From Escherichia coli (GTDB lineage: Bacteria; Pseudomonadota; Gammaproteobacteria; Enterobacterales; Enterobacteriaceae), in NCBI RefSeq assembly GCF_048403405.1, contig NZ_CP183129.1: 64,000 nucleotides of DNA; one strand, 5' to 3'. Made by a program: the position numbers. This document shows, one piece after another, positions 5,287 to 8,200 of this stretch; positions within the stretch are counted from its first letter, which is position 1, and each line of letters opens with the position of its first letter.

Positions 5287-8200
5287 TAAGTTCGCAAAGT
5301 GGTAACTGCCGTGTGTTCTCTTAAAGCTATCGTTAATGGGCACACGGCATTTTTATATCAGATAAACGATATGTCATGACAATTTACAGACAGCATCGAT
5401 ATATAATTCATATTTATTAATTCTTAATAATATTTCTCATCTGAGTATGTATCATACAATAAGCATTATAAATAACTAATAAATTATTTATTATATTTAT
5501 ATATTGCCCCACTCTTCAGTTATCCTGTCTAAAATAAATCTCTTTGTTTTCAAATGACTGTATTTTTATATAAAGTCAATCATTGCGAGCATGGATTCTT
5601 TTAGTTATATTACCAAGCAGCTCATATAATATTTTCCAGCCATTCTATCTCTTATTTTTTTTCTGTGGTTAACTACACCAGCTTTATTCATTTAAATAAT
5701 GTGACTTGTTAAAGCTGAATGTAAAAATAATCGCCAATATTGCTTGGATTTTTTAACAAAAGGAAAGGTATAAATGAAATTCAATCTATCTAATTTATCC
5801 GCAGTTTTACTCGCATCAGGTATGCTGATGTCAACTGCGGTAACCGCTGCGCCAGGCGATGCATCACAATTTGGTGGTGCGGATACAGACTGGAGCACCG
5901 TTGATTATCCAAAACTCACCGATATGGATAGCAACACCGATGCGATGGGCGGAAACATCCGCTTTACTGGTCGTGTGGTTAAAGCGACGTGTAAGGTTGC
6001 TACAGAATCGAAACAGATTGAAGTGGTACTGCCAGTCGTACCTTCTAACGCTTTCACGGGCATTGATACCGAAGCAACGGGTGCCAGTAACCAGACTGAC
6101 TTCAACATTAAATTGACTGATTGTAGCAATACGGACAGTCAAAATATTGAATTTCGTTTTACTGGCGTAGCAGACGGTGCCAACCAGACGCTTGCCAATG
6201 AAGTGGAAGGAGCTGCTGATGCTGATGGTACTGGCGAAGCGGGAGCTACGGGTGTAGGGATTCGTATTTATTCTAAAAACACGACAACTGATGGCCTGAT
6301 TAAGCTGAACACACAAACTCCCCAGGGGAGTAGTTCTTCAGCAGCCTACGTGATTCCTGGCGATGCAGCCACTCATGATTTTACTGCGGCATTTACCGCG
6401 GGCTATGCTCAGAACGGTAGTACCGTTGCACCAGGTCTGGTGAAATCAACGGCAAGTTTCGTCGTGCTGTACGAATAATTACAGCAAGATAATTTCAGGT
6501 TACAGTTACTTGTAACCTGAAATTAATATTACATGTTTATTTGTAATAAATAGACATGCATCAGTAATTACAATTAATTTCATCTACAAGGATGCAGTAT
6601 GAGATGGATTTCAAAAAATAAATGTTTTTCGAATAGAAACATTAATTCTTTGCTGAAGACCCAATATATCATAAGGGCCGGTGCTCTATTTTTACTATCC
6701 GCCATATCTATCAATGCTATTGCTGCGGGTGGCTTCGGTCTTGGTTCTACGCGTCTGGTTTATCCATCTGACAGTCAGCAAATTACGCTAAGTGTACAGA
6801 ATGGTGGGGCTAACACCAGCTATTTAATCCAGTCATGGATTGATGACAATCAAAGCAGTAAAAAAAGTCAGGATTTTGTGGTTACGCCTCCTTTATTTAT
6901 GTTACCAACGCGAAAAGAAGCCTCATTGAGGATAATGTTTATTGGTAAATCACAGTTACCGACTGATCGCGAAACATTATTCTGGATGAATGTGAAAGCG
7001 ATTCCGCCAACGGATGAGAAGAATACCCAGAAAAACACGTTACAACTGGCGTTACAAAACAGAATTAAATTATTTTACCGTCCGACTAATTTACCCGTTC
7101 AAGCTGGTAAAGCACGGGATATGCTGCGATTTAAATACGAAGGTAAACAGCTAAGAGTCATTAACCCTTCTCCCTATTATCTGACGGTGACTGGAATCAG
7201 GGTGCAAGGGGCAAAATTACCCAATGCGTTTGTTCCACCGAAAAGTGACGTAACAGTGTCTTCACCAGTGATGCTAGCCGGTGAAATTACTTATCAAACT
7301 ATCAATGATTACGGTGCCACAACGGCCAGGCAAAAGGGAACGATGCAATAAACCTGGAAGATTAAAACGTTAAAGCAACTCAGGTCAGGGATATGAACCT
7401 AAAGCTCAGAAAACTCGAACACAGGATGGCAAGGCAGAAGCAGATGAGGCGGTGTATGCTGCTTCTACTGACACTTTTGCCTGCGTGTTCAGTGGCGGGT
7501 ATGCGCTTTAACCCTGCATTCCTGTCGGGTGATACAGAAGCTGTTGCTGATTTATCTCGTTTTGAGAAAGGGATGACATATCTACCTGGTAGTTATGAGG
7601 TTGAAATATGGGTCAATGATTCGCCTTTGACATCACGTAAGGTTACTTTCAAAGCTGATGAGCAGAATCAGTTGATCCCCTGTTTTTCGCTCGATGAGTT
7701 AGTTACTTTAGGAATTAACAAAAGTGCATTGCCGGAACAGGCGCAAGCAGAGGGAAATAATTGTCTCGATTTACGTATATGGTTCGCAGAAGTTCAATAC
7801 ACTCCTGAACTGGATGCGCAACGACTCAAACTGACCTTTCCGCAGGCAATATTAAAGCATGAAGCCCGTGGTTATATTCCACCTGAGGAATGGGATAATG
7901 GTATCCCGGCCATTCTTATTAATTATGATTTTTCTGGCAACAGTGATCGTGGAGACTATGCGTCTGATAGTTATTATTTAAATCTCCGTTCAGGTTTAAA
8001 TTTAGGGGCGTGGCGTTTTCGTGATTATTCTACATGGAGTCGTTCAGGTAATTCACCGGGTAAAATTGCACATGTGAGTAGTACGTTACAACGAGTAATT
8101 ATTCCTTTTAAAAGTGAATTAACACTAGGTGATACCTGGTCTTCATCGGATGTTTTCGACAGTGTGAGTATTCGTGGTGCTAAACTTGAATCCGATGAAA

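What the first reader, a model, noticed from the sequence alone, without database searches (positions are those of the whole stretch)
5774..6478. Pilin with an unusually long acidic segment between the signal peptide and the donor strand
The major subunit is 234 aa, versus about 180 for typical FimA-like pilins. After the predicted signal peptide there are about 33 residues rich in Asp/Thr/Ser (PGDASQFGGADTDWSTVDYPKLTDMDSNTDAMG) before the conserved donor-strand region GNIRFTGRVVKATC. In canonical pilins the donor strand follows within a few residues of the cleavage site. An N-terminal extension ahead of the donor strand could alter subunit polymerisation or be a surface-exposed epitope or modification site, if the extension is real and retained in the mature protein.
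Basis: partly seen in the sequence, partly recalled or inferred. Interest (0 to 1): 0.35.

Follow-up and report, generated by a model that had tools for sequence, protein, structure and literature searches.

The report
AufA pilin's unusual acidic N-terminal tail
The gene is the already-named major subunit (AufA) of E. coli Auf fimbriae, and it does carry a conserved 33-residue acidic tail ahead of its polymerisation strand that almost no related pilin has; what the tail does is untested.

Summary
ORF 5774-6478 (+) encodes a 234-aa chaperone-usher pilin. It has a Sec-type signal peptide (1-25), a 33-residue tail (26-58; 7 Asp, net charge -6), then a canonical donor strand (G59-V69) and a FimA-like body.

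The gene is aufA, the first gene of the known aufABCDEFG operon between glgP and glpD. It is 84% identical to CFT073 AufA, which is also 234 aa.

The tail is not a start-codon artefact. Only the first ATG gives a signal peptide, and it has a good Shine-Dalgarno sequence. The tail is kept in both E. coli auf types and in Citrobacter, with dN/dS of 0.15-0.39.

It is rare outside this family. In 95 related pilin clusters the gap between the signal-peptide core and the donor motif has a median of 15 residues (maximum 38); AufA has 43. ElfA, the pilin of the closest usher relative, lacks the tail. Three unrelated pilins have similar tails of 24-27 residues.

The tail explains only about half of the extra length; body loops add about 22 residues.

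Function is inferred only: a retained tail emerging where earlier subunits meet, acting as an enlarged PapA-like "staple" or a flexible acidic coat. AlphaFold2 was uninformative. This is a modest, real curiosity in a known system.

The parts
5761..5768 (+). Shine-Dalgarno-like AAGGAAAGG, 5 nt upstream of the aufA ATG
   Evidence: Read directly from the sequence. It supports 5774 as the start codon.
5774..6478 (+). aufA, major subunit of Auf chaperone-usher fimbriae (234 aa plus stop); an allelic variant of CFT073 c4214
   Evidence: ORF. PF00419 scores 77.8 bits against a 25.6 cut-off. 84% identity over all 234 residues to CFT073 C_RS19945, which is aufA. RefSeq annotates the same 705-nt CDS.
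5774..5848 (+). Signal peptide, residues 1-25 (MKFNLSNLSAVLLASGMLMSTAVTA); predicted cleavage VTA|AP
   Evidence: An n-region containing Lys, a hydrophobic core, and the -3/-1 rule. Pro27 excludes cleavage one residue later. This is rule-based reading of the sequence, not an experimental result.
5849..5947 (+). N-terminal acidic tail, residues 26-58 (APGDASQFGGADTDWSTVDYPKLTDMDSNTDAM)
   Evidence: Composition and charge. Invariant in 5 family members: A26, D29, F33, G34, G35, D37, W40, T42, Y45, P46, T49, D50, D52, N54, M58. dN/dS is 0.15-0.39. No PDB sequence match. AF2 pLDDT is 30-42, which the depth control shows is not diagnostic.
5948..5980 (+). Donor strand, residues 59-69 (GGNIRFTGRVV)
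   Evidence: Aligns with GGTIHFEGKLV of Salmonella FimA and GGNMQFQGVII of FimI in solved structures. Predicted as a beta-strand with pLDDT about 80 in the AF2 chimera.
5981..6475 (+). Pilin body, residues 70-234, with the conserved Cys73-Cys117 pair and the C-terminal FVVLYE
   Evidence: Both Cys are invariant in the 32-row alignment. The AF2 body matches self-complemented FimA 6s09 with a target-normalised TM-score of 0.86 and rmsd 2.4 A.
6200..6253 (+). Second acidic Gly/Ala-rich loop, residues 143-160 (EVEGAADADGTGEAGATG); one of the body insertions relative to FimA
   Evidence: Shown by gaps in the FimA alignment. D149, A150, D151, G154 and G157 are invariant. pLDDT is below 50 for AufA residues 145-152 in one copy of the body in the AF2 chimera, and only for a shorter stretch in the other.
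6490..6525 (+). Perfect 15-16 bp stem-loop, 12 nt after the aufA stop codon
   Evidence: -20.3 kcal/mol, z = -5.25. It has no T-run, so the terminator scan did not call it.
6599..7351 (+). aufB, periplasmic chaperone
   Evidence: PapD_N plus PapD_C; RefSeq CDS.
7393..9984 (+). aufC, outer-membrane usher
   Evidence: PapC_N, Usher and PapC_C. 50% identity to K-12 ElfC.
9984..10547 (+). aufD, minor pilin with an ordinary short N-terminus
   Evidence: PF00419. The start is taken from RefSeq.
10555..11079 (+). aufE, minor pilin with an ordinary short N-terminus
   Evidence: PF00419; RefSeq CDS.
11045..11824 (+). aufF, second chaperone
   Evidence: PapD_N plus PapD_C. The start is taken from RefSeq.
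11838..12968 (+). aufG, two-domain putative tip adhesin
   Evidence: The C-terminal half is PF00419. Weak FimH and LpfD NCBIfam matches, below their cut-offs. The start is taken from RefSeq.

Best explanation
The ORF is aufA, the major structural subunit of the known E. coli Auf chaperone-usher fimbriae. This copy is the less common of two deeply diverged auf types at the glgP-glpD locus.

Shown or directly read from the sequence: the precursor has a normal Sec signal peptide; a 33-residue acidic tail specific to this family; a canonical donor strand (G59-V69, with G60/I62/F64/G66/V68 matching the FimA positions that occupy the acceptor groove); and a FimA-like body. The tail is translated and under purifying selection.

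Inferred: signal peptidase cuts after Ala25, so the tail stays on the mature 209-residue pilin (predicted 21.5 kDa, pI 4.3). During donor-strand exchange only residues 59-69 enter the groove of the previously assembled subunit. The tail therefore leaves the far end of that groove, at the place where PapA's 5-residue 'staple' projects towards several earlier subunits.

Most likely, the better-conserved proximal half (W40 to M58, including YP and D-x-D-x-N) docks there as an enlarged staple. The less conserved distal half (26-39) would remain a flexible, negatively charged surface appendage. The expected consequence is a fibre whose packing and surface differ from tight type 1 or P rods. The tail is not needed for the basic polymerisation chemistry, which is ordinary.
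For: Identity as aufA:
- The locus lies between glgP and glpD.
- The seven-gene order is pilin, chaperone, usher, pilin, pilin, chaperone, adhesin.
- The protein is 84% identical to CFT073 C_RS19945, which is aufA.

Start codon and signal peptide:
- No upstream in-frame start exists.
- A Shine-Dalgarno sequence sits at 5761-5768.
- The identical or near-identical CDS occurs in 217 complete genomes.

The tail is conserved and constrained:
- It is present in both E. coli types, in C. freundii and in a metagenomic relative.
- dN/dS is 0.15-0.39 where dS is at least 0.64.
- 15 of its 33 positions are invariant.

The donor strand and body are canonical.

The tail is rare among relatives.

Geometry precedent: PapA residues 1-5 precede the donor strand (6-19) and contact subunits -1, -2, -4 and -5 (PMC4715182).

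Three unrelated major pilins carry analogous D/E/S/T/G-rich tails of 24-27 residues. At least one is encoded by the first gene of a chaperone-usher operon.
Against: - There is no experimental N-terminus or mass for AufA in the papers I could read. Auf was not detected in a CFT073 proteome, and the original 2004 description is not held.
- AF2 gave the tail pLDDT of 30-42 in a donor-strand-complemented two-subunit chimera, so no docking was predicted. This is uninformative either way: with only the 5 family sequences AF2 failed on the whole protein (pLDDT 31).
- The charge-hydropathy test puts the tail on the disordered side, but it does the same for many windows of the folded body.
- A Thr3Arg mutation in PapA's staple did not prevent native-like rod formation, so a staple role may be dispensable.
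- A 33-residue segment may not fit inside a tight rod.
Confidence: 0.45

Rival explanations
1. The whole tail is an intrinsically disordered acidic 'bristle'. It makes no specific contacts and simply coats the fibre with negative charge, giving steric or electrostatic shielding and a variable epitope.
For: The composition is 21% Asp with much Gly, Ser, Thr and Pro, and net charge is -6. It lies on the disordered side of the charge-hydropathy plot. AF2 pLDDT is low. There is no PDB sequence match. Analogous tails in unrelated pilins are low-complexity and not homologous, suggesting that composition matters more than sequence. Authors of the TosR study suggested that Auf fimbriae may sterically inhibit other adhesins (PMC5956150).
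Against: Aromatic and motif positions (F33, W40, Y45-P46, T49-D50, D52, N54, M58) are invariant across sequences whose tails are only 53-68% identical overall. A pure spacer would not be expected to keep them. The low pLDDT is not diagnostic.
Confidence: 0.25
2. The tail is a pro-segment. It is needed transiently in the periplasm (for example to delay premature donor-strand exchange, or to interact with a chaperone or the usher) and is trimmed before or after incorporation, so the mature pilin is of ordinary size.
For: The operon has two chaperones. The tail is constrained but less so than the body. No data show that the tail is present in assembled fibres.
Against: I know of no chaperone-usher pilin processed in this way (my own knowledge). 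No protease is encoded in the operon. The tail has no dibasic or other obvious processing site; Lys47 is its only basic residue (sequence).
Confidence: 0.1
3. The tail is a metal-binding element. D50-x-D52-x-N54(-x-D56), next to the donor strand, binds Ca2+ and locks or stiffens the subunit junction, perhaps together with the invariant D149-A-D151-G loop of a neighbouring subunit.
For: D50, D52 and N54 are invariant, as are D149, A150, D151 and G154. Both segments are acidic and Gly-rich, and both have stretches of low AF2 confidence, as metal-dependent loops often do when modelled without the ion.
Against: It is not a canonical EF-hand: position 12 is Asn or Lys rather than Glu, and D56 is not conserved (Ser in one relative). 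No Pfam or NCBIfam metal-binding domain was found.
Confidence: 0.1
4. The extension is an annotation artefact. The true start lies downstream (M51 or M58), or the segment is a recent insertion with no function.
For: One database entry is only 190 aa (P0006).
Against: P0006 starts at the same Met; it is short because of a frameshifted C-terminus and a 2-residue N-terminal difference. Starting at M51 or M58 removes the only signal peptide. The Shine-Dalgarno sequence precedes 5774. The tail is conserved with dN/dS below 0.4 across taxa. RefSeq calls the same CDS in the GN02461, UTI89 and CFT073 genomes. The tail is not an internal duplication.
Confidence: 0.02

Closest known systems
AufA (c4214 / C_RS19945) of uropathogenic E. 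coli CFT073, major subunit of Auf fimbriae (Buckles et al. 2004, cited in PMC5956150)
   Same: Same glgP-glpD locus and the same seven-gene operon. Same length (234 aa), 84% identity, and the same N-terminal tail with five substitutions.
   Different: The window carries the minority auf type: 228 of 5426 complete genomes, against 557 for the CFT073/UTI89 type. aufA is about 77.5% identical at the nucleotide level, and the upstream intergenic region is only 50-60% identical.
ElfA (YcbQ) of E. coli K-12, pilin of the Elf/Ycb fimbriae, the usher-phylogeny sister of Auf (PMC3559732)
   Same: The ushers are 50% identical. The donor strand and pilin body are homologous, 31% identity over the aligned part. 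Both operons have two chaperones.
   Different: ElfA is 179 aa and its donor strand (G30) follows the signal peptide directly, with no tail. The gene order of the minor subunits and adhesin differs.
FimA / FimI, the type 1 pilus subunits (PDB 6erj, 6s09, 6swh, 5oh0)
   Same: Same fold: target-normalised TM-score 0.86 for the AF2 body against self-complemented FimA. Same donor-strand pattern GGxhxFxGxhh, same Cys pair and same C-terminal Tyr motif.
   Different: The mature N-terminus of these chains lies 2-7 residues before the donor-strand glycines, against 33 in AufA. The AufA body has about 22 extra loop residues. All NCBIfam equivalog scores are far below their cut-offs.
PapA 'staple' (residues 1-5) of the P pilus rod (PMC4715182)
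   Same: A segment N-terminal to the donor strand that stays outside the groove and is projected to where several earlier subunits converge. The AufA tail occupies the same topological position.
   Different: It is 5 residues against 33. There is no sequence similarity. The staple's contacts are seen by cryo-EM, whereas those of the AufA tail are hypothetical.
Unnamed major pilins P0067/P0155, P0081 and P0090 (metagenomic or unlabelled genomes)
   Same: A PF00419 pilin with a 24-27 residue D/E/S/T/G-rich segment between the signal peptide and the donor strand. P0155 is encoded by the first gene of a pilin-chaperone-usher-pilin-adhesin operon.
   Different: Their tails are not alignable with AufA's. 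Overall identity is only 28-34%. They are shorter and lack the W, YP and DxDxN motifs. These look like independent acquisitions.

Membership tests
Chaperone-usher (FimA-like, PF00419) pilin | Fimbrial domain above Pfam's gathering score | tested here: met
   PF00419 scores 77.8 bits against a 25.6 cut-off, covering residues 62-233.
Chaperone-usher (FimA-like, PF00419) pilin | Sec signal peptide | tested here: met
   Residues 1-25 have an n-region Lys, a hydrophobic core and V-T-A at -3 to -1. This is a rule-based reading; no dedicated predictor was available.
Chaperone-usher (FimA-like, PF00419) pilin | N-terminal donor strand with alternating hydrophobic residues and a conserved Gly | tested here: met
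   GGNIRFTGRVV aligns column for column with the donor strands of FimA and FimI from solved structures. It is predicted as a strand with pLDDT about 80.
Chaperone-usher (FimA-like, PF00419) pilin | Incomplete Ig-like fold with a conserved disulfide pair and a C-terminal aromatic motif | tested here: met
   C73 and C117 are invariant in 32 rows. The AF2 body matches FimA 6s09 with a target-normalised TM-score of 0.86 and rmsd 2.4 A. The protein ends in FVVLYE.
Chaperone-usher (FimA-like, PF00419) pilin | Encoded alongside a PapD-like chaperone and a PapC-like usher | tested here: met
   aufB and aufF have PapD_N and PapD_C; aufC has PapC_N, Usher and PapC_C.
Chaperone-usher (FimA-like, PF00419) pilin | Donor strand begins within a few residues of the mature N-terminus (typical, not strictly defining) | tested here: not met
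   33 residues intervene. The median gap in 95 relatives is 15 residues from the signal-peptide core, against 43 here.
Chaperone-usher (FimA-like, PF00419) pilin | Polymerises by donor-strand exchange at the usher | not testable with these tools
   This needs purified fibres or in vitro assembly.
Auf fimbriae (aufABCDEFG), AufA orthologue | Chromosomal position between glgP and glpD | tested here: met
   Window glgP is at 2842-5289. The identical locus in strain GN02461 is followed by glpD. CFT073 has the same arrangement, and the literature places auf at glpD..glgP (PMC12928451).
Auf fimbriae (aufABCDEFG), AufA orthologue | Seven-gene order: pilin, chaperone, usher, pilin, pilin, chaperone, adhesin | tested here: met
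   the same order is seen in CFT073.
Auf fimbriae (aufABCDEFG), AufA orthologue | Full-length similarity to reference AufA (CFT073 c4214) | tested here: met
   84% identity with no gaps over 234 of 234 residues. It is an allelic variant, not the identical protein.
Auf fimbriae (aufABCDEFG), AufA orthologue | Produces surface fibres that react with anti-AufA serum | not testable with these tools
   This is an experimental criterion, and the original paper (PMC427398) is not held.
PapA-type 'staple' segment | Residues N-terminal to the donor strand that contact non-adjacent subunits in a helical rod | not testable with these tools
   It needs a filament structure. The two-subunit AF2 chimera gave low confidence for the tail, and the depth control shows that result is uninformative.
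EF-hand / DxDxDG-type calcium-binding loop | 12-residue loop with acidic or Asn ligands at positions 1, 3 and 5 and Glu at position 12 | tested here: not met
   D50, D52 and N54 fit positions 1, 3 and 5, but position 12 is Asn or Lys and position 7 varies. There is no Pfam or NCBIfam hit. A non-canonical site is not excluded.

The most novel reading that the evidence does not exclude
The 33-residue tail is a functional module new to chaperone-usher pilins. Its conserved W40-M58 half would act as a long inter-subunit clasp, possibly Ca2+-dependent through D50/D52/N54. Its distal half would form an acidic brush. Together they would give Auf fibres a quaternary structure and surface chemistry unlike type 1 or P rods. 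The same solution would have arisen independently in at least three other pilin families.
Probability: 0.2. Interest if true: 0.45.

Novelty: already known. Interest (0 to 1): 0.27.

Why it matters
Auf is one of the fimbriae enriched in uropathogenic E. coli. After twenty years it still has no known receptor, structure or clear phenotype.

The major subunit carries a conserved, atypical tail exactly where rod-forming pilins make their quaternary 'staple' contacts. That gives a concrete, cheap handle for experiments: an intact mass, a deletion, a cryo-EM map. These could show why Auf fibres behave differently, and how much N-terminal baggage donor-strand exchange tolerates. The latter is relevant to engineering pilins as display scaffolds.

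It does not change the understanding of chaperone-usher assembly. The polymerisation elements themselves are ordinary.

Tried and rejected
- **Wrong start codon.** Rejected. There is no upstream in-frame start, a Shine-Dalgarno sequence sits at 5761-5768, and M51 or M58 would lack a signal peptide.
- **The 190-aa 'AufA' database entry as evidence for a shorter protein.** Rejected. It starts at the same Met and is frameshifted at the C-terminus.
- **Relatives that seemed to have long N-termini (P0028, P0059, P0114, P0151, P0126, P0075).** These are start codons called upstream of a normal signal peptide, not real tails.
- **Tail as an internal duplication of another part of aufA.** Only short chance repeats were found.
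- **Similarity of the tail to any solved structure.** No hits even at E <= 10.
- **AF2 on a designed chimera** (body 71-234, linker, mature 26-234, Gly6, donor strand). The bodies and donor strands were modelled well, but the tail had pLDDT of 30-42.
- **AF2 depth control with the 5 family sequences.** It failed on the whole protein (pLDDT 31), so the low tail confidence cannot be read as disorder.
- **Charge-hydropathy sliding windows.** Too noisy to discriminate.
- **Two scans of 100,044 species-representative genomes for AufA relatives.** Both found nothing. These scans depend on peptide patterns, so this shows that the family is rare, not that it is absent.
- **The original Auf paper (PMC427398).** Not held. 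A search for 'Auf fimbriae' together with 'amorphous' found no paper describing the morphology of Auf fibres.
- **My first signal-peptide cleavage heuristic.** It picked sites too early, so I replaced it with a measure that does not depend on the cleavage site.
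Full report

Yes. The ORF at 5774-6478 (+) encodes 234 aa, and no in-frame start lies upstream. The ATG is preceded by AAGGAAAGG at 5761-5768.

The first 25 residues (MKFNLSNLSAVLLASGMLMSTAVTA) have the layout of a Sec signal peptide, with V-T-A at positions -3 to -1. Pro27 excludes cleavage one residue later. This is a rule-based reading; no dedicated predictor was available.

Next come 33 residues, APGDASQFGGADTDWSTVDYPKLTDMDSNTDAM, with 7 Asp, 4 Thr, 3 Ser and net charge -6. 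GGNIRFTGRVVKATC follows.

Three independent comparisons place the start of the canonical pilin at about residues 50-62:
- Pfam PF00419 matches only residues 62-233 (77.8 bits against a 25.6 cut-off).
- All 17 NCBIfam pilin models that match begin at AufA residues 50-60, aligned to their profile positions 16-30.
- Mature FimA/FimI chains from solved structures align their residues 3-8 to AufA residues 54-56.

So about 28 residues lie beyond where a canonical mature pilin begins.

The tail explains only about half of the extra length. AufA residues 56-234 (179 residues) align to 157 residues of Salmonella FimA, so body loops add about 22 more. One such insertion is the acidic loop EVEGAADADGTGEAGATG at residues 143-160.

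**2. What is the gene?**

The ORF opens a seven-gene chaperone-usher operon: pilin, PapD-like chaperone, PapC-like usher, two pilins, a second chaperone, and a 383-aa two-domain adhesin-like pilin. glgP lies immediately upstream.

In an identical E. coli locus, glpD follows the operon. The literature places the auf operon exactly there, at glpD..glgP (PMC12928451). It names the CFT073 genes c4207-c4214 as aufG to aufA, with aufA being C_RS19945 (PMC5956150).

I retrieved that CFT073 locus. Its AufA is also 234 aa and is 84% identical to the window protein without gaps. The window therefore carries aufA.

It is the rarer of two deeply diverged auf types. About 228 of 5426 complete E. coli genomes have the window type at 95% identity or more. 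Another 557 have the CFT073/UTI89 type, which is about 77.5% identical at the nucleotide level in aufA.

A Citrobacter freundii genome has the same seven-gene operon at a different chromosomal site.

**3. Is the tail real protein?**

The downstream in-frame Met codons (M51, M58) would give a pilin with no signal peptide.

The tail is present in both E. coli types, in Citrobacter and in one metagenomic relative. Fifteen of its 33 positions are invariant: A26, D29, F33, G34, G35, D37, W40, T42, Y45, P46, T49, D50, D52, N54 and M58.

Pairwise dN/dS for the tail is 0.15-0.39 where dS is 0.64 or more. For the body it is 0.04-0.08. The tail is thus less constrained than the body but clearly under purifying selection.

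It is not an internal duplication, and it has no sequence match in the PDB even at E <= 10.

**4. How unusual is it?**

An exhaustive HMMER search of 1.84 billion cluster representatives gave 132 hits. Almost all align AufA residues 53-59 to their own residues 20-30, which is directly after their signal peptides.

I used a measure that does not depend on predicting the cleavage site: the distance from the end of the signal peptide's hydrophobic core to the donor-strand motif. The 95 non-Auf relatives have a median of 15, an interquartile range of 13-17 and a maximum of 38. AufA has 43.

Several apparent long N-termini were merely start codons called too far upstream.

Three families have genuine tails of 24-27 residues, rich in D, E, S, T and G, that cannot be aligned with AufA's: P0067/P0155, P0081 and P0090. 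P0155 is encoded by the first gene of a chaperone-usher operon.

ElfA, the pilin of the Elf/Ycb fimbriae, has no tail. The Elf usher is 50% identical to AufC, and published phylogeny calls Elf/Ycb closely related to Auf (PMC3559732).

Two pattern-based scans of 100,044 species-representative genomes found no AufA relative.

The tail is therefore a trait of a small accessory family, with rare independent analogues elsewhere.

**5. How does it probably work?**

The polymerisation elements are ordinary. G60, I62, F64, G66 and V68 align with the alternating donor-strand positions of FimA and FimI. The Cys73-Cys117 pair is invariant.

An AlphaFold2 model of a designed two-subunit, donor-strand-complemented chimera gave pilin bodies at pLDDT 75-90 and donor strands at about 80. 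The model's bodies match self-complemented FimA (6s09) with a target-normalised TM-score of 0.86 and rmsd 2.4 A.

The tail in that model had pLDDT of 30-42, with only a four-residue helix at LTDM. This cannot be read as disorder. With only the five family sequences as the alignment, AF2 failed on the entire protein (pLDDT 31). The tail's low confidence may therefore simply reflect shallow alignment depth.

A charge-hydropathy test puts the tail on the disordered side, but it does the same for many windows of the folded body.

The mechanism is therefore inferred from geometry. In the P pilus, PapA residues 1-5 precede the donor strand (6-19) and turn out of the groove. They are projected to where several earlier subunits converge, contacting subunits -1, -2, -4 and -5 (PMC4715182). 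AufA's tail occupies the same topological position but is six times longer.

My best reading has three parts:
- The tail is retained after signal-peptide cleavage, giving a mature protein of 209 aa, 21.5 kDa and pI 4.3.
- The conserved proximal half (W40 to M58) docks at the inter-subunit junction as an enlarged staple.
- The distal half is a flexible acidic appendage.

The result would be a fibre whose packing and surface differ from those of type 1 or P rods.

The rival readings are a wholly disordered acidic coat, a transient pro-segment, and a non-canonical Ca2+ site. The Ca2+ idea rests on the invariant D50-x-D52-x-N54 and on D149-A-D151-G in the second acidic loop; it is not a canonical EF-hand. 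None of these can be excluded with the tools available.

**6. What is known and what is not.**

In the papers I could read, Auf is described as follows:
- It is enriched in uropathogenic strains.
- It is poorly expressed in vitro.
- It is induced by TosR.
- It has no demonstrated fitness role in mouse urinary tract infection (PMC5956150).
- It was not detected in a CFT073 proteome (PMC12890032).

None of these papers mentions the N-terminal tail or gives a mature N-terminus. The original 2004 description is not held, so I cannot say whether it commented on the tail.

**7. Verdict.**

The object is already known. It is AufA, and the tail is present in the reference sequence. The feature itself appears not to have been characterised. 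It is of modest interest and easily testable by an intact mass, a deletion mutant and a filament structure.

Noticed in passing
window 6490-6525: A perfect 15-16 bp stem-loop lies 12 nt after the aufA stop codon (-20.3 kcal/mol, z = -5.25). It has no T-run, so the terminator scan missed it. It resembles the stem-loops that follow major pilin genes in other fimbrial operons, which act as mRNA stabilisers or partial attenuators.
   Followed up: partly
window 5740-5910, compared with L002 (UTI89): Between the two E. coli auf types, the upstream intergenic region is 50-60% identical and the aufA body 70-80%. A patch of about 170 nt covering the Shine-Dalgarno sequence, the signal peptide and the first ~20 tail codons is 90-95% identical (dS 0.32 and 0.64, against about 2.8 in the body). 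It could be a recombination tract or an RNA-level constraint; this is unresolved.
   Followed up: partly
window 5300-13100; E. coli complete genomes: Two deeply diverged versions of the whole auf operon occupy the same glgP-glpD site. The window type is in about 228 genomes and the CFT073/UTI89 type in about 557. 4640 of 5426 genomes have neither. This divergence is far greater than typical E. coli core-genome divergence.
   Followed up: partly
window 6200-6253 (AufA residues 143-160): A second acidic Gly/Ala-rich loop, EVEGAADADGTGEAGATG, contains the invariant residues D149, A150, D151, G154 and G157. Part of it (about residues 145-152) has AF2 pLDDT below 50. Together with D50-x-D52-x-N54 in the tail it resembles Ca2+-binding-type motifs.
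   Followed up: no
L008 (CFT073) 15198-18590; L001 11808-12022: CFT073 has three extra hypothetical genes between aufG and glpD, and RefSeq flags its aufG as a pseudogene with an internal stop. The window-type strain GN02461 has only a 215-nt frameshifted remnant there.
   Followed up: no
L003 (C. freundii CP057863) 9001-16105: A Citrobacter freundii strain carries the same seven-gene auf-like operon (AufA 77-78% identical, tail included). It lies in a different chromosomal context, after cobUST and an ABC transporter and before yfbU, which points to horizontal mobility of the operon.
   Followed up: no
window 5290-5773: A 484-bp, very AT-rich intergenic region lies between glgP and aufA. It has only consensus-level promoter matches, no more than shuffled sequence gives. 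This fits the reported poor in vitro expression of auf and its dependence on regulators such as TosR.
   Followed up: no
window 6599-7351 (aufB): As called, the AufB chaperone has an unusually long N-terminal leader: about 42 residues before the AxA-type site INAIA|AG. A basic stretch, MRWISKNKCFSNRNINSLLK, precedes the hydrophobic core. RefSeq uses the same start.
   Followed up: no
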